This document shows positions 1 to 44,357 of a stretch of DNA of 64,000 bases, piece by piece; the first letter of the stretch is position 1, and every line of letters begins with the position of its first letter. The notes under the pieces were generated by a model, which was given only the letters and a program-made list of their open reading frames with translations, was not told where the DNA came from and made no database searches. A program made the position numbers and the translations under genes. The stretch comes from Eledone cirrhosa (taxonomy: Eukaryota): the NCBI GenBank assembly GCA_964016885.1, contig OZ024743.1, forward strand, positions 38,192,001 through 38,256,000. The letters are read 5' to 3'.

Positions 1-870
1 TTACCGATTATTAAATGTACCATTATGTTATGTTAAATTTTGTAAATTCTGTAATATGTTTATATTTTTATAATTTTTGTAATGTTTGGATAATATTTAT
101 TTATTTACACCAATTGTATAGAAATTGGACCTCCATCTGTTTTCTTGCAATGGTTTTGATATTTTTCCAACATAATTTTTCCAACATATTATTTCTCACA
201 ATGTTTTTTCTCACCCGGTCTGTAACTCTATATGATTTGTTAAGTTATATGCCATTATATTATAATATTGTTATTATAGTGTTATTGTAACATTTATATT
301 GTTTGTGCAAATTAACCGGAGATTATCTATTATGTAATTATATAGTTTATTATATATTATATGTTTACTTTTAATCATTTATTCTTCATTTTATACTGTA
401 AATAATATATGTATTATATTTTTATTTTTATTTTTATCTTTATTTTTATTTTTATTTTTATTCTTATTATTCTTATTATTCTTATTTATATTTAAACTCT
501 TAATAAGGGTTAGTCTGTGCTTCTATTGATGGAAATGTGTATTGATATATATGTATATATGTGTACATATGTATATATATATATGTATATTGGGCCTTTT
601 AATATTATTATTATTATTATCAATTATATTATATTATATTATATTATATTATATTATATTATATATAGTACAATAATTCCCGCTCTTTATCACCACCTTT
701 GTTTAGCTTTAGTTTTGGCATTGGACTATATTTGTAATATGGTTCAAAATGTTATTCACTTCCTTAGCAATTTTTACTTGATATTTTCCTATGCTTTAAT
801 GTATGTACACTCAATATTCTTCTGAGTTTTTGGGTTGTATTGGCCGATAGTGCTTCTTATAGCGTTAATT

Positions 871-908
871 GCCCTGATGAGTCCTTAATAGGACGAAACA
901 TTGTTGGC
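871..908 (+). ncRNA. Minimal type I hammerhead ribozyme (PLE pLTR type)
   Basis: gcc-CTGATGA(874-880)-gtcc ttaata ggac-GAAA(895-898)-c att g-TT-ggc. Stem II is a perfect 4 bp. AATAAA and then (TA)n follow. Confidence 0.8.
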
Positions 909-953
909 TAATAAATACTTTTGATGTATTGAAGGCTTCTTTGGTTTATTTTC

Positions 954-1052: not shown

Positions 1053-1149
1053 AGCGGAGGAATTGTGGTGAGGAACCAGATGGCTATTTCTGTCCAGATG
1101 TAGCCGTCGAAAGGGCTTGAGCTCTGCCGTCGGGGTCATACTTTTTCCT
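1053..1149. mobile_element. Fold-back PLE-derived mini-element (3' half of the 22855-family HHR)
   Basis: tagccgtcGAAAgggcttgagctctgccGTCgggg is shared with 2688, 22855 and 23484. Flanked by (TA)n. Confidence 0.65.
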
Positions 1150-2061: not shown

Positions 2062-2240
2062 GAAAAATCAGTGATGCATCTGAATTCAATTTATTGTGTC
2101 CTTAGATTGTAACACACAATAAATTGAGTTCAGATTCATCACTGACTTTTCGTTTTCTATTCTATCATACTCTGCTATGTAAGAGCATATAGTGCTCAAC
2201 CGGCATACCGCCTATGGAAGCATCTTAGCTACCATCAGAC
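2062..2240. mobile_element. Fold-back mini-element related to the 2265 element
   Basis: Hairpin arms 2068-2099 / 2114-2145. The tail tcatactctgctatg.. resembles 2591-2668. Confidence 0.6.
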
Positions 2241-2315
2241 ACACATATATATATATATATATATATATCACAGAAAAAAAAAAGAGAATCAGTGTTGCGA
2301 TGAATGGAATTTATT

Positions 2316-2413
2316 AGACACATTACGATCGTTTCTCTGGCGACCAGCTCAAGGCACGATCGATGGGATGATCGAACCTGACTCTGAAAATCGCAAAGTC
2401 CTCAGATACATCT
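2316..2413 (-). ncRNA. Hammerhead ribozyme, long stem II (mirror copy)
   Basis: Reverse complement reads agatgtat-CTGAGGA-63 nt-GAAA-cgatcg-TA-atgtgtct. Confidence 0.7.
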
Positions 2414-2444
2414 TGATTCTACGAAAATCTGCTTCGTAGAATCA

Positions 2445-2542
2445 AGACGTATCTGAGGACCTTGCGATTTTCAGAGTCAGGTTCGATGATCACATCGATC
2501 TTGCCTCGAGCTGGTCGCCAGAGAAACGATCGTAATATGTCT
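2445..2542 (+). ncRNA. Hammerhead ribozyme, long stem II
   Basis: agacgtat-CTGAGGA(2453-2459)-63 nt imperfect hairpin-GAAA(2523-2526)-cgatcg-TA-atatgtct. Stem I is 8 bp; stem III is palindromic. Confidence 0.75.
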
Positions 2543-2734
2543 AATAAATTCCATTCGTCGCAACACTGATTCTCTTTTTTTTCTGTGATATCATACTCTG
2601 CTCTATGAGAGCATCGTGTGCTTATATGGCCTACCGCATACGTACACTTTAAGCATCCAACACCAACTATATATATAGAGAGAGAAATAGCCGTCGAAAC
2701 GGCTTGAGCTCTGCCGTCGGGGTAATTACTTTTT

Positions 2735-12533: not shown

Positions 12534-13554
12534 TGGCAACATGGCCCTCCCAAAGTATAACAATATATATATATATATATATATATATGCAGATATGCAT
12601 AATTTAACAGCCATAAATGCATGAAAGTTAATCCTGTATATTTATATATATATACTAAACATATTTATTTAATAACACAAACAATGTATAGCAGTAATAC
12701 AAAAAAACACTTATGCTTTGTATGTATATGTTATATGCGGGAGTAGATATAATGTGTATTTTCCGAGTGTGTGTGTATATATATATTTATGTATCTTTGC
12801 CTATGTGTACGTGATATACGATAGGTAATTTCTCTAGCAATATATATATTTTGTAATGTTTAAATTCCAATTTTTTATATATTGATCTCAATTTTTAAAC
12901 TAAATATCTAATCATAATTAAACAATGATTCATTTCTCATATTATATATGTATATTCCATTCATGAATATTAATATTTCTTTTTTTATTTATTCATTTCA
13001 TCTCAAATGTTAACTCAACTTAATATGACATGACTTAAGGTTTTCGTTCTCTCCCCCTCTCTCTATCTCTATATTTCTCTTTCTTGATTTTTTTCTCTCT
13101 GTCTGGTGGTTTGATATCTCTCTGTTGTTTTCCTCTGTTTTCTTTTTTCTTTTTTCTTTTCTTTCTTCTTTATTTATCTCTCCCTTTCTTTTCTCCACAT
13201 TTCTCTCTATCTCTCCGTACTTATCCTTAACACAACTTACTAAAATAAACAAACCACTATCCTGAAGTCGTCCAAAAGTAATGGTCGCATTTTGAAAGGG
13301 TACGTCAATATTTATTATAAAACTGGTATATATTGTATTTTGTCTGATGAAGGCATACCATAATTTAACTTGGTATCCTTTAAATATGTATAATGAAATA
13401 AATATGGTTTTATAAATATAGTTTCCATTTGTTAATATCGTATATATATATATATATATATATAGTGGTGGAACACTGGAAGTTAATATCCGTAGTGGTA
13501 GAGCACTCAGTCTAAGGGACGAGTTAGGTAGAAGTGGTTGCACAACAGTTAGTA

Positions 13555-13594
13555 CCGATAACAATTGTTTCACCTTAGCGGATCTTCAGCTCGG
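13555..13594 (-). ncRNA. Minimal hammerhead ribozyme
   Basis: Reverse complement: ccgag-CTGAAGA-tccgctaaggt-GAAA-caattg-TT-atcgg. Confidence 0.7.
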
Positions 13595-13729
13595 GATGTG
13601 CATGGTTATTAGAAAAGAAAGGACAACCGTACGAACGCACATGCGCAGAAACTCGGTCACCTCACACAGACTAGATTGCGTGCGAGAGGTGTAAGGGAGA
13701 TAGCTGCGAAAGACCGGAAAGTTTTTAGG

Positions 13730-13869
13730 TTAAAAATAAAAATAAAAATAAAAATAAAAATAAAAATAAAAATAAAAATAAAAATAAAAATAAAAATAAA
13801 AATAAAATTAAAAATAAAAATAAAAATAAAAATAAAAATAAAAATAAAAATAAAAATAAAAATAAAAAT
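13730..13869. repeat. (TAAAAA)n hexanucleotide repeat
   Basis: Direct reading; lies inside the left pLTR arm. Confidence 0.95.
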
Positions 13870-13946
13870 ACAAAGAATCAGTGATACCTGTAGGTATGCA
13901 ATAAATGTTTGGTGACGTGTGGATAACGTCAAAAATTCACTTCTCT

Positions 13947-14310
13947 TTAGGCAATCACTATTGCGTAATTTAGAATTGTTATTCGTTCGTCAATGGATAA
14001 GCCACAGGTCGCATTTCCCCTTGCGAATAGCTTGGACTTAGTGATGGATTTCCATTGAATGGAGTAGTCTATACTTGAGTCCTCGAGGGACCATACGTGG
14101 CTCGCGAGTTTCGTCGATGAACGTTTGTCCGGGTATCTGAAGGTAGACTGGAAACGCTCCTTGAATCGGCCCTCCGCAATGCCCACATAGAATTTGACCT
14201 CCTGTGGTTCGTTTGATCGGTTAGAAGGGACCACAGCTTCATAGATTACAGCTGGTGTGTTGCATTGCTGTTGAAGGGGGCAAGCTTCAGGTTTATGGCA
14301 AGAGCACCCT
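13947..14310 (-). pseudogene. PLE GIY-YIG endonuclease domain fragment
   Basis: CSCHKPEACPLQQQC..VIYEA..FYVGIAEGRFKERF..STKLASHVWSL..YSIQWK..C.L..DERITILNY. Confidence 0.85.
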
Positions 14311-14587
14311 GGTAAAGAGATTCCGCAATAGTGATTGCCTAAAAACGAGAGGTGAATTTTTCACACGTTGTCCACACATCACCAAACATTTATTGTATAA
14401 CTACAAGGCTCCGGACTGATTCTTTCTAATTTTATTTTTATTTTCAAGCTAAAAACTTTCCGGACTTTCTGAGTTATCTCCCTTACACCGCTCGCATGGA
14501 GTGTAGTATTGCCTGCGTGAGGTGACCGAGTTTCTGCGCATGCGCGTTCGTACGGTTATCCTTCCTGTTCCCATAACCATCCACATC

Positions 14588-14627
14588 CCGAGCTGAAGAT
14601 CCGCCAAGGTGAAACAATTGTTCTCGG
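14588..14627 (+). ncRNA. Minimal hammerhead ribozyme
   Basis: ccgag-CTGAAGA-tccgccaaggt-GAAA-caattg-TT-ctcgg. Stem I is a perfect 5 bp; stem III is palindromic. Confidence 0.8.
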
Positions 14628-14666
14628 TATGGTGAACTAACTGTTGTGTAACCACTTCTATATATC

Positions 14667-23344: not shown

Positions 23345-23533
23345 AACGAAGGAAATGTGGTAAGGAACCAGGTGGACCATAACGCACCAAAGTACTCAAT
23401 ACTTACGGTAGTAGAGTGGGTAATAGGAACAAGTAAGACCCCGACGGCTGAGCTCAAGCCGTTTCGACGGCTAATTCTGAGTCCAGAATTAGCCGTCGAA
23501 ACGGCTTGAGCTCAGCCGTCGGGGTCTTACTTG

Positions 23534-23536
<3 letters not shown>
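23345..23536. mobile_element. Fold-back mini-element with a perfect 53-bp hairpin
   Basis: Arms 23427-23479 / 23484-23536 are identical; loop agtc. Confidence 0.85.
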
Positions 23537-23604
<68 letters not shown>

Positions 23605-29205: not shown

Positions 29206-31877
29206 AAGTCAAACACGAGAAAAAAAAATTAATAGTGCATACAATACACAACTGAATATACAATATAGAACGTACACAATGGTTATATACCTCTTGCAGG
29301 TTATGGGTTCTTTCCACGTACTGTCATGTGATTACAGCCAGAACTCTTAATACACTGATAGGTGTATTTAATAGATATCATATTGTATTACTGCTCACAT
29401 GGAAAAGAAAAAAAAAAGAAAAAGCGAAACAAAAATAGGGATTATCCAATCAATATTGTGCATTTCAAATATCACCGATAGTTCATGAATATGAGTGGGA
29501 AGTATTTGTCGAGGAGTCTGAGTGTAATACAAGGGACACCTCTCTGTTACCTTTACTTTATCAGGTTCGAGTGTGTAAAGAAGCCTTTCTCACTATGTAT
29601 AAGAGTGGAATGTAGTGGATAAGAACGTTTTTTAGTGGATGTATTGTTGTGGTATATAAAGCAAGTAGCATATGCACATATTTTGTTATTTAATCTCCTT
29701 GAGTAAGCAGAACGGAGATGATCAAGTTCTGTTTGAATAAACCACGCTAGAATAAATTATTCAAAATTAGATGTTCATGCATCATTCCAATTGCTGATCA
29801 TTTTCCTGAAGATCTTACCGTAGTGAGTACATGTATTCAAGATACATTGATAGGTAAGCTGTATATAGCTCGATATCCTATGAAGATTTATTTCTAAATT
29901 ACGGGAGCGGAAGTTCTTCACACGTGTCATTTAGAAATTAGGTGGAGTTTCGTTGTGTCATCTTCGGGCCAATATATTTTTTATCAATCAACTCTCAAAC
30001 CGAGTTGTCTGGGCTAGACCAGAAATGAAGCATGTTCGATGTAAATTCAAAGAAGTGTAGAACGGTTATATGGAGTGAATATCTAGATTGATAGTTCTAG
30101 AGGCATTGGAAGCAGGGAAAATACACGACAAATGTTGCCTGAGTTAGGTATAATTGTTAGTTTATCTTATTTGACGTAGATGTATTTAATGAAAGAAAAT
30201 TGTTGGTAGGGAACAACTGCAATTTAAAGGGGGTCTTTGGAAGATCGTTGGGTGAGTTTAGTGAAAATGGAAATAATACTCTCAAGCAAATTAACATTTT
30301 ATTGACGCTAGAAATGTCAGTGAGGATATTCACTGTATTTATAATATTTGCAGTCTACTTTGCAATCAATGGCCGATGTCTCGAACTATAGCAATATATA
30401 TGAGTACGCAAAGAAAAATAATTGACTTTTATCAGTAGTATTTACGTTTGCTTCGGCAAAACAATTATCAGAAATGTCCATAGAGTCACCAATAAAACAA
30501 CGTAAACAAACGCACTCAATCAAATTCTCTCGTTTTCTGACAGCTACTTAAGACTGATTGAGAGATTTTAACTTCGAAAAATTGCTAGATACTGATAAAT
30601 AAATTATAAATTACGATTCTGTAGAGACAAATGAGAAGTCTCTTGTATATAATCATATATTCACACCAGCGATAACTGAAAACAGACATATGCAGTTTCA
30701 TACTTTCCTCGTACGTTCACATATCACATACACAATCACGTAAACGCCAGAAACTCATATAAAAATGTGTTCCCACAGCGTTATATATGATCACATAAAT
30801 ATATATCTTAAATTGAATACACACACACTAACGCACAAATACGTGAAATCGCAAACACATAATATATATATATACATAATATATACAGGTGTGTGTCTGT
30901 GTGTGTGTGTCTCTGTGTGTATGTGTGTGTATGTATGTGTGTGCGTCTGTGTGTGTGTGTGTGTGTATGTGTGTGTTGTTTGTATGTGTATCAGGTAGCT
31001 CGATGGAATGTCACCTTTCCTGAGACAACGCATCTGATGTAACACATATTAAATAGCTCGTGCAACATGCATATATAATATCCAGCCATCCTAACTGAAA
31101 TACATAGCAACGGTGAATAAATGTATCATACGTTAGAAAAGCAGTATTAGAAATGTGTATGTTTGTCTGCCTTCTTGTAATTGTTGGTATCGAAATACTG
31201 TTTCAATAATATATATTAAATGTACGTATGTTGTAAGGGTGCACTGAGGAACAATATAACATGTGATTTACATGTAATCACCGTTCTTAGATATATGAAA
31301 ATTGAAATTTGAGATATCTACAGATTAGCTTACTCTCAGTGATCCTAATAGAACGCTTATTATACGAACAATCTTATATACTAGCTTCTAGAACACACAC
31401 ACACACATACACACACACACACGCACACGCACGCACACACACATGTTGAATTGTATATATCTATGTATTACTCTTTTTGTCTCTATGCATTCCTATCTAT
31501 CTGTCACCAACTACAGAAAGCATTCTCCAAGGGAGATGAGCTGGATTTGTCTAGTATTTCATAAATACATGGCAACTCACATCAACCATTGCTTCCTACG
31601 TTCGTCGTCACTACGCTCAACCCAACCTATCATACATGCCAAAACATTCCTCATAATTAAACCACCAATCAAAGCAACATAAACCGTCCAACATATGAAC
31701 GTGAGACATCTATATGTCATGTATATTCATTCTGTCATTACTACAACAGACGTCCGACGAGCTTTTGATTCCAGAGTGGGGCCGGATCGATAGAGATCGA
31801 ACCTTGAACTGATGAATAGCGAATCGGGCGTCACCAAACAATAAAAGTAATGAAGGCTTAACTACTCGTCCTCGTAT

Positions 31878-42589: not shown

Positions 42590-44357
42590 AGGTCAGTAAT
42601 TTCCTACTACCTTATTACCAGTAAGAGAAATAGCTCAAATAAATAAATAAATTAGATAATTATCAAAGTTGTGTTCAAATCATATAATAGCTGACAAACG
42701 TGGTAACTTTATGTTTAATTCTAACACTTATTGCAGAGTATAAGGTTAGAGATAAATAGGACTTGTGTAGAGGAAATAGCTTATCAAAGAGTGTGTGGCT
42801 TTGGGGGATGATAAGTCCTAGATGCGAAGTGTTAATGGTGGTGAGGAATTCAAATCTGACATTGTTATATACTAACAGCTAGGTTTAAAGTTATGGACCG
42901 AGTGATGGTATCAGTGTTGGCACGAGGAAAAAACATCTGACTTTCTATTAAGGAGGTCTAGTTTCGAAAAGAGTATAGTATGGTTCTCTAGAAGACAGAG
43001 ATTACACTATTTATTCGGTTGTTTATACGATGAGGCCCTACCTACTACTTCCCATTGCGTGTAAATGGTCTATTCCTAGTTTTCAGAGAGTGTACGTAGC
43101 TAGATAAAGTAGTGGAGTTGGCTAGATTGTGTTTTTTAAAAGAGTTCAGGTGCAAGTTGTATCTCGTCTTGAAGCTGTTCGAAGTAGAGCCGACATATGT
43201 TTTAGAAGAATTGTTTGCGTTGACGGTGCATGAGTAATTGATGTCTTTGGTTAAGCAATTATTACCTAAAGGGCAAGTTCTATTAGTTTTACAGTTACAT
43301 TTATTATGGATGTTTGCTTGCCGGTTACTATGTTGTGAAGAAGTCTGGTTGCTAGGGATAGCACTAGGGTAATGATGTCTGTCATTCGTATTGTTATTTC
43401 ATTAGTGCTATTATCATTATTACTATTATTACTACTATGGTTTACCGGTACTAAGCTTACCACCTGTTGTGTTTTAATTAGTTGGAAATAATTATTAATC
43501 TTCCTTTTATTACTACTAGCTATATGGTATGATATGTTAGGTGTGGTAGCGTACGAGATTTTAATCGTATTTTTATTGATACGATTATGGTACTTGTGGC
43601 TGGATAGGAAGTTTTTTTCTAAGATTGAGAAGAAAGCGTTAGGCAAGTTGGTAGAGACGTTTAGATTGAAAGGGGGATTGAAGAATGTATTAGTTCTTCT
43701 ATTTTTGTTTTTAGTAATTTTTTTTGAGGTATTTGTATCCCTGTTTATATTATCATCGTGGTGATTACTGTGGTGCGAGTTAAGTTTGGTATTACCATTC
43801 GTCTTAGAGATATAGTGGCTAGTACTTTTATTATTTTTCCTCATGGCAATATTATGAGAAAAATGTTGTAACTATGTAATTTTATAGGTAGGAATTCAAT
43901 CCCATTCTTATGTCCTGAATTAGCTCAGGCCTCATTATAGTATTGTGAATTATTGTTAAATATGGTTTCATTATATGATAGATTAGAGATTCTATTAGAT
44001 ATTCCTTTAGCATTTGAGTTTAATATGGATTTGGTGTGGTTAGAGTTGGTATTCACATGAATTAGTTTTTCGTTAAGTTTATGAAAGGGTGTGTATATTT
44101 CAGAGTCTAGGCAAAGGGTAGCATCAAGGAAGTTAACGTTTTTAGTGTTTTTATTGTTTTTATTGTTTTTATCTAAAGTGATACTTAAGTTGCTCACAAC
44201 ATCAATATATATGTATCTATATTATTGTTTAATAGGAGGTTAATTACATGTACAAACATTGATAATACTCCGATGAAATCAAACAAGAGTTTGGAAGAAA
44301 CGATTGGCAGCTATTAAATGATTTGAACACAACTTTGATAATTGTCTAATTTATTTA
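42590..44357 (-). mobile_element. Truncated Penelope-like element (RT C-terminus, linker, GIY-YIG) with inverted pLTR piece
   Basis: VNFLDATLCL..YTPFHK..SNH; FFNPPFNLNVSTN..INKNTIKISYATTPNI; CPLGNNCL..YVGSTSNSFKTRYNLHLNSF. 42637-42700 is the inverse of 44301-44357. Confidence 0.85.
44264..44315 (+). ncRNA. Decayed hammerhead ribozyme
   Basis: aatact-CCGATGA-tcaaac/gtttgg hairpin-GAAA-cgattg-GC-agctatt; the inverted sister copy retains GTC. Confidence 0.5.

What the first reader, a model, noticed from the sequence alone, without database searches (positions are those of the whole stretch)
2265..2591. 330-bp palindrome encoding a long-stem-II hammerhead on each strand
The two ~160-bp arms each carry CTGAGGA..GAAA cgatcg TA with an 8-bp stem I. 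The 63-nt stem II forms a nested hairpin (gcga/tcgc, cag/ctg, cagg/cttg, tcgatg/catcga). Standard HHR models would probably miss such a long stem II. A transcript of either strand contains both the ribozyme and its antisense, giving a rod-like dsRNA that competes with the active fold.
Basis: partly seen in the sequence, partly recalled or inferred. Interest (0 to 1): 0.75.

Follow-up and report, generated by a model that had tools for sequence, protein, structure and literature searches.

The report
Mirror-image jumping-gene stub with hammerheads
This palindrome is the short end of a common Penelope-type jumping gene sitting head-to-head with a copy of itself, a layout already described for such elements and likely a by-product of insertion; the only unusual part is that its predicted self-cutting RNA carries one arm more than twice as long as in catalogued relatives.

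Summary
The 327-bp palindrome and a type I hammerhead motif on each strand are real, and Rfam misses the motif. It is not a unique device. It is a 5'-truncated insertion (2265-2670) of the pseudo-LTR end of a high-copy, 4.9-kb Hydra-clade Penelope-like retrotransposon, with an inverted second copy and a one-sided 75-nt tail, inside (TA)n. Of 30 copies picked by the tail, 17 have an inverted arm, 5 a stub, 8 none; outer ends are fixed, centres vary. Inverted copies with a hammerhead on each strand are in print (PMC8557442 File S2, PMC4209133). Read-through RNA would form a rod about 128 kcal/mol more stable than the ribozyme fold, with the antisense arm made first: likely dead, not switched. 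No editing footprint. What is a variant: stem II is 61-63 nt (12-26 nt in catalogued Hydra hammerheads) and covaries across diverged subfamilies. Cleavage is untested; the 2-bp palindromic stem III predicts dimer-only activity. This scan already reported the same kind of thing on other DNA.

The parts
2245..2264 (.). (TA)n target, left side; the next 4 bases (ATAT) fit both target and element
   Evidence: sequence; same junction in other copies
2265..2425 (-). Inverted, 5'-truncated pseudo-LTR copy; outer end at 'site 2' (no tail)
2317..2412 (-). Type I hammerhead motif, minus strand (core 2405-2399, stem II 2398-2336, predicted cut between 2324 and 2323); three G.U pairs in stem I
2420..2425 (.). 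Head-to-head junction, about 6 nt shared by both arms; the direct arm starts at the family's 5'-end hot spot
2420..2670 (+). Direct, 5'-truncated pseudo-LTR copy; outer end at 'site 1'
   Evidence: reference 1508-1756, 94%
2446..2541 (+). Type I hammerhead motif, plus strand (stem I 2446-2452/2535-2541, core 2453-2459, GAAA 2523-2526, palindromic stem III 2526-2533, predicted cut after A2534)
2460..2522 (+). 63-nt stem II: C.A mismatch, about 19-20 bp in short helices, conserved internal loop, GATC-capped hairpin
2592..2666 (+). One-sided 75-nt 'tail' between site 2 and site 1, ending in an AC-rich stretch; in full-length copies the ORF follows it
2668..2677 (.). (TA)n target, right side
   Evidence: sequence

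Best explanation
The palindrome is two 5'-truncated copies of the pseudo-LTR end of a Hydra-type Penelope-like retrotransposon joined head-to-head in a TA microsatellite, likely made in one insertion event, and each copy carries the element's ordinary hammerhead motif. Shown: family, boundaries, link to an RT plus GIY-YIG ORF, variable centre, fixed outer ends 75 nt apart. Inferred mechanism (about 0.6): the element's protein nicks both strands of (TA)n and starts reverse transcription at two internal sites of one RNA, one per strand; both cDNAs stop early, often at one spot 26 nt upstream of stem I, and are joined by microhomology. Inferred for the ribozyme: in the element's sense RNA it would cut, if at all, as a dimer through the self-complementary 8-nt stem III and probably with protein help; in a read-through transcript of this palindrome it would be trapped in a 155-bp rod. 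This genomic copy is likely inert and decaying.
For: High copy: 2543 first-look candidates, 40 scored, at 92-95%. Tail-selected sample: 17 of 30 with inverted arm, 5 stub, 8 none; 16 different inner-end pairs among the 17. 101 of 103 distinct arms end at site 1 (60) or site 2 (41) (site 1 is inflated by how loci were chosen). Full-length copies L141 and L143 read pseudo-LTR, ORF, 1.8-kb 3' region, pseudo-LTR; L143 shows RMRWRA, SDKT, YRDD, CxCx5C, VVY..YIG, CxLC, CRH, matching the Hydra definition. Homologues of the related 847-aa ORF carry PF01541 and PF00078. Arms of one insertion share non-majority bases: 13 in 2513 columns over 26 pairs, rate 0.0052 against 0.0005 when arms are re-paired, 0 of 2000 permutations. 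Direct arm reaches further in 7, inverted arm in 7, equal in 3 of 17 (counted). Published: inverted 5'-truncated copy, one-sided tail, TA bias; two RT start sites bounding the tail, both strands cut and extended, protein-assisted ribozyme in another clade; Penelope-13_HM with a hammerhead on each strand. Rod -278.4 against -150.0 kcal/mol with the ribozyme enforced.
Against: Shared mutations fit fold-back copying or gene conversion between arms equally well. The two-site mechanism was shown in vitro for a Poseidon element, not a Hydra one. The tail is 75 nt, not the 30-40 nt reported. None of the 12 ORF-bearing copies with a 5' pseudo-LTR match starts at the 5' hot spot, so the template RNA of the short copies is not identified. 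All 13 long family copies fetched are broken, and no tree against named Hydra proteins was built. No cleavage, RNA or spanning-read data.
Confidence: 0.82

Rival explanations
1. Same element, but the second arm is made by fold-back self-priming of one cDNA (or on an antisense template), and the tail arises from endonuclease resolution of the intermediate.
For: Proposed in print for head-to-head Penelope junctions (Discussion passage). Explains shared mutations. Some junctions are small palindromes (L018, L025, L027).
Against: Either arm can be the longer one, and either site can end a direct copy: 7 of 13 long copies end at site 2, 2 at site 1; both outer ends join (TA)n through 4-nt microhomology; copies with no inverted arm stop at the same 5' spot.
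Confidence: 0.25
2. The motif has a hammerhead shape but hardly cleaves; the long stem II is kept for another job, such as binding the element's protein or promoter function.
For: C.A at 10.1/11.1 in 52 of 63 family arms; only 11 of 35 sister-subfamily copies have a strict core and 11 have CCG(A/T). 1 of 101 arms begins within 3 nt of the predicted cut. PLE hammerheads cleave poorly in vitro and ribozyme mutants did not block insertion in the Poseidon assay.
Against: Core intact in 44 of 63 family arms; stem III self-complementary in 54 of 63 and 21 of 35 with several different palindromes; a mismatch at this place is normal for Hydra hammerheads (15 of 26 rows, hand count).
Confidence: 0.3
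3. One reading: a selected sense/antisense device in which a rod-like dsRNA regulates the ribozyme or feeds small-RNA or editing pathways.
For: The rod is very stable; such hairpins could be ADAR or Dicer substrates if transcribed (established knowledge).
Against: Only 6 of 30 copies have both arms long enough for two hammerheads, and 3 of these have deletions in the inverted arm. Centre not conserved. A>G 11 of 1421 in paired arms against 5 of 898 in solo copies. The energy gap leaves no competition.
Confidence: 0.05
4. Assembly artefact (fold-back chimeric read).
For: No record spans the stretch.
Against: Arms differ at 8 bases and one indel; outer ends fall on family-wide sites; 16 other loci of 30 show the layout; 93 raw reads of another sample show the site 2 to (AT)n joint for the family (run X21).
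Confidence: 0.02

Closest known systems
Hydra-clade Penelope-like elements and their hammerheads (Craig et al. 2021, PMC8557442; passages, section 11, supplement Files S1-S2 read), e.g. Penelope-13_HM, Hydra-1_Obim
   Same: C-terminal GIY-YIG, DKT, CxCx5C, CxxC and CxH motifs, (TA)n target, type I hammerhead near the 3' end with short palindromic stem III and often a mismatch opening stem II; Penelope-13_HM has an inverted 5'-truncated copy and a hammerhead on each strand.
   Different: Stem II 61-63 nt against 12-26 nt in the 26 Hydra rows (hand count); C.A, A.C or A.G instead of U.U; RWR/RWH instead of RWK; unit 4.9 kb against under 3 kb; tail 75 nt against 30-40.
Minimal type I hammerheads of metazoan PLEs (Cervera and De la Pena 2014, PMC4209133; parts 1-2 of 4 read, supplement not seen)
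   Same: In pseudo-LTRs, palindromic helix III, dimer model, pairs on opposite strands 100-700 bp apart attributed to truncated PLEs.
   Different: Their helix II is 7-8 bp with a conserved G10.1-C11.1 pair; here about 20 bp in four short helices with internal loops and no G-C opening pair (kept only in a basal subfamily, 5 of 35 copies).
Inverted pseudo-LTR plus tail structure of EN+ Penelope elements (Arkhipova et al. 2013, PMC3846280, passages read; Frangieh et al. 2024, PMC11167929, parts 1-2 of 4 read)
   Same: Head-to-head inverted copy, one-sided tail, AT-rich target, AC-rich end.
   Different: Longer tail; hammerhead lies wholly upstream of the ORF; a sharp 5'-end hot spot that the parts read do not describe.
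Non-LTR retrozymes (bioRxiv 10.64898/2026.07.22.740005, part 1 of 5 read; PMC7229834, search listing only)
   Same: Type I hammerhead, PLE ancestry.
   Different: Not tandem head-to-tail units; this is a truncated piece of the autonomous element itself.

Membership tests
EN+ Penelope-like element | Single ORF with RT and C-terminal GIY-YIG endonuclease linked to this repeat | tested here: met
   L141, L143 and others; homologues with PF00078 and PF01541. Pfam itself gave no hit on the genome's own ORFs.
EN+ Penelope-like element | Pseudo-LTRs: 3' end repeated before the ORF | tested here: met
   Repeat directly followed by the ORF in 12 of 25 loci found with the ORF start; flanks both sides in L141, L143, L145-L148, L151.
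EN+ Penelope-like element | Inverted 5'-truncated copy and one-sided tail | tested here: met
   tail is 75 nt rather than 30-40.
Hydra clade | DKT, CxCx5C linker, CxxC and CxH, no CCHH, (TA)n target | tested here: met
   Motif scan against the definition; absence of CCHH judged by eye (one Cys inside the GIY-YIG core).
Hydra clade | RWK motif; length generally under 3 kb | tested here: inconclusive
   RWR or RWH; unit about 4.9 kb.
Hydra clade | RT phylogeny groups with Hydra | not tested
   No tree built; named reference proteins were not available as tool sequences.
Neptune clade | CX2-5CxxC linker, CCHH, DKG | tested here: not met
   my first reading, dropped.
Type I hammerhead ribozyme | Core CUGANGA, GAAA, UH closed by stem I | tested here: met
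   Both arms; 44 of 63 family arms.
Type I hammerhead ribozyme | Stems I and II supported by covariation | tested here: met
   19 diverged copies: basal stem II helix 5 of 6 pairs with changes on both sides, 89.5% paired; upper part 5 of 13; slid controls 30-35% paired. Outer stem I only 63%. Relatedness inflates the shuffle test.
Type I hammerhead ribozyme | G10.1-C11.1 pair | tested here: not met
   C.A in 52 of 63; mismatches here occur in natural hammerheads, so not disqualifying.
Type I hammerhead ribozyme | Stable stem III | tested here: not met
   2-bp hairpin +2.4 kcal/mol; intermolecular duplex -10.0 (window) or -5.8 (family majority): fits the dimer class.
Type I hammerhead ribozyme | Self-cleavage | not testable with these tools
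   No assay; no RNA run of this organism was offered.
MITE or fixed palindromic element | Fixed length and centre, terminal inverted repeats moving as a unit | tested here: not met
   Centres vary, arm optional, tail on one side.

The most novel reading that the evidence does not exclude
A clade of cephalopod-type Hydra elements has grown hammerhead stem II into a conserved 60-nt domain (fixed internal loop, GATC-capped hairpin, mismatch at its base) that serves as the docking site for the element's own protein or replaces the usual loop-loop contact, and a short RNA starting 26 nt upstream of the ribozyme is copied from two start sites at once, making these small palindromes a genomic record of double priming on one RNA.
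Probability: 0.3. Interest if true: 0.55.

Novelty: new variant of a known kind. Interest (0 to 1): 0.27.

Why it matters
The palindrome itself is ordinary for this class. Two points have modest value. First, hammerheads with a 60-nt stem II escape Rfam and the usual descriptors, so ribozyme counts in such genomes are too low, and the covarying domain is a clear target for asking what peripheral structure does in protein-assisted PLE ribozymes. Second, the fixed outer ends, shared mutations between arms and the 5' hot spot give population-scale support for two-site priming, so far shown in vitro for one element of another clade.

Tried and rejected
Neptune assignment: dropped after the Hydra definition was checked. 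Pfam on the genome's own ORF pieces and long ORFs: no useful hit; solved-structure search: nothing below E 0.9; Atlas search unavailable. Covariation inside the young family: no power, copies differ by about 3%. K-turn reading of the internal loop: tried by eye in both orientations, flanking helix does not pair; rejected. Editing footprint: not found. Footprint of cleavage at copy 5' ends: 1 of 101. Reads: none spans the locus; three guessed-RNA runs and one DNA run of other organisms gave 0 matches, which proves nothing. A subfamily defined by CGATCG: 19 exact pattern matches in the genome, mostly without the window's other changes, so probably recurrent; those loci were left out of the permutation test. 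The 10 kb left of the window was fetched but not analysed, so whether the insertion lies in an intron is unknown. Lunse et al. 2017 on PLE hammerhead variants is not held and may describe long stems; supplements of PMC4209133 were not seen. Seven paper searches showed no report of a 60-nt stem II in Hydra or cephalopod elements; a 54-nt one is listed for the plant element PLE-X1_sMoe.

Full report
Observation. The palindrome is real: arms 2271-2425 and 2433-2587 are 94% complementary, the fold is -261.4 kcal/mol with z -36, and each strand carries CTGAGGA, a 63-nt insert, GAAA, ACGATCGT, A and a closing stem I. Rfam finds nothing at gathering score in the whole window and no hammerhead here at E<=10, though it hits a short hammerhead at 868-912. 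The right arm continues through 75 more bases before TA repeats resume, so the unit is 2265-2670.

It is a repeat family. The right arm plus tail has 2543 first-look candidates in the 3.0-Gb genome, of which 40 were scored, at 92-95% identity. In 51 distinct loci the direct copy ends at one site and the inverted copy, when present, at a second site 75 nt upstream, both joined to (AT)n through about 4 shared bases. In 30 loci chosen by the tail alone, 17 have an inverted arm of 30 nt or more, 5 a stub and 8 none; the 17 show 16 different pairs of inner ends; 6 have both arms long enough for two hammerheads, and in 3 of these the inverted arm has deletions. Over all held loci 101 of 103 distinct arms end at one of the two sites. 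The palindrome is therefore made anew at insertion and does not move as a unit.

The parent element. Longer copies extend upstream into a GIY-YIG C-terminus and downstream of the tail into an ORF start. Of 25 loci found with the ORF start, 12 have the repeat directly before it. Of 13 long stretches fetched, L141 and L143 read repeat, ORF, 1.8-kb 3' region, repeat, a unit of about 4.9 kb; all 13 are broken; L143 shows RMRWRA, SDKT, YRDD, CxCx5C, VVY..YIG, CKLC and CRH. A related open ORF of 847 aa has 429 homologues, some with PF01541 or PF00078. I first called it Neptune. RWK is RWR or RWH here, the element is longer than usual, and no tree was built. The host looks cephalopod-like (homologue in Argonauta; likeness to Hydra-1_Obim); this is inference.

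The layout is in print. Inverted 5'-truncated copies, a one-sided tail and TA bias are described for Penelope-like elements (PMC3846280 passages; PMC8557442 passages). Pairs of hammerheads on opposite strands 100-700 bp apart were attributed to truncated PLEs (PMC4209133), and Penelope-13_HM is listed with one on each strand (File S2). For a Poseidon element, the protein cuts and extends both strands, starts at two internal sites that bound the tail, and assists a ribozyme that is not needed for insertion in vitro (PMC11167929).

How this copy likely formed. Arms of one insertion share non-majority bases ten times more often than re-paired arms (13 in 2513 columns, 26 pairs; 0 of 2000 permutations; loci selected for CGATCG left out), so they come from one template, or were converted afterwards. 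Either arm may be longer (7, 7, 3 equal; counted), and long direct copies end at site 2 (7 of 13) or site 1 (2 of 13). This fits two primings on one RNA better than a fixed-order fold-back, without excluding it. Ten of 30 direct arms and 5 of 17 inverted arms stop in an 8-nt stretch at CATAGG, 26 nt upstream of stem I (binomial p 9e-8 and 0.003); the window's direct arm is one of them. An RNA 5' end there is the simplest reading, but none of the 12 older ORF-bearing copies starts there, so this stays open.

The ribozyme. The core is intact in 44 of 63 distinct family arms, and stem III is a self-complementary 8-mer in 54 of 63 and in 21 of 35 sister-subfamily copies, with several different palindromes. 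As a hairpin it is unstable (+2.4 kcal/mol), as a duplex stable (-5.8 to -10.0), as in the dimer model. The long stem II is clade-wide: a covariance model from 7 sequences found 118 matches in 100 of the held loci, all subfamilies with 60-63 nt. On an independent MAFFT alignment of 19 diverged copies (18 not used for the model) the basal helix has changes on both sides in 5 of 6 pairs and the upper part in 5 of 13, against 30-35% pairing for slid controls; relatedness inflates the shuffle test, and outer stem I is weak (63%). The base of stem II is C.A in 52 of 63 arms; sister subfamilies have A.C, A.G or G-C. In File S2, 15 of 26 Hydra rows also open with a mismatch and stem II spans 12-26 nt (my hand count). 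Other hammerhead families in the same loci have 12 to 50 nt and one 101 nt, so length is labile in this genome. Against activity: 11 of 35 sister copies have CCG(A/T) cores and only 1 of 101 arms begins near the predicted cut. Cleavage is untested.

For the whole insertion the rod is -278.4 kcal/mol and the best fold with the right-arm hammerhead enforced is -150.0. On either strand the antisense arm is transcribed first, so there would be no window for the ribozyme to fold. Substitutions in paired arms are dominated by C>T and G>A; A>G is 11 of 1421 against 5 of 898 in solo copies. No RNA data for this organism were available. The window holds 20 inverted repeats under 2.5 kb, including another head-to-head hammerhead pair, so such hairpins are common here.

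Artefact. No record spans the locus, but the arms differ at 8 bases and one indel, end on family-wide sites, and the site 2 joint is seen in 93 raw reads of another sample.

Verdict. A known layout of a known class, with a hammerhead variant whose long, covarying stem II I did not find in print (searches; one key paper not held). This scan had already noted the same kind of structure in other genomes and elsewhere in this one. Interest 0.27.

Noticed in passing
window 2062-2240: A second, shorter head-to-head stub with tail from a sister subfamily (91-93% to L051, L059, L084), lacking most of the hammerhead, right beside the finding.
   Followed up: partly
window 868-912 (+): Short canonical type I hammerhead, Rfam RF00163 29.1 bits, below gathering score.
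   Followed up: no
window 13529-14660: Another head-to-head pair with a short-stem hammerhead on each strand (13549-13600 minus, 14582-14633 plus) and a one-sided extension on the left.
   Followed up: partly
window 31743-31838 (+): Decayed relative of the long-stem hammerhead with CCGA core and G-C at the base of stem II.
   Followed up: partly
window 21784, 38519, 41584 (+): Three more type I hammerhead motifs with stem II of 36, 21 and 36 nt.
   Followed up: no
window 1096-1146, 2683-2733, 23423-23540: Pieces of another palindrome-forming repeat beside TA runs, with far higher read depth than the family studied.
   Followed up: no
L103:610-743 (+): Hammerhead-like motif with a 101-nt stem II and the same ACGATCGT stem III.
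   Followed up: no
L055, L056, L058, L059, L085, L087: Sister subfamilies with CCGA or CCGT in place of CTGA in the core; some CTGA or CCAA copies may be CpG decay of CCGA.
   Followed up: partly
window 43269-43871 (-): Open frame resembling the linker region of the same kind of element.
   Followed up: no
family-wide, reference L031: 5' ends of both arms pile up at CATAGG, 26 nt upstream of stem I; cause not established.
   Followed up: partly
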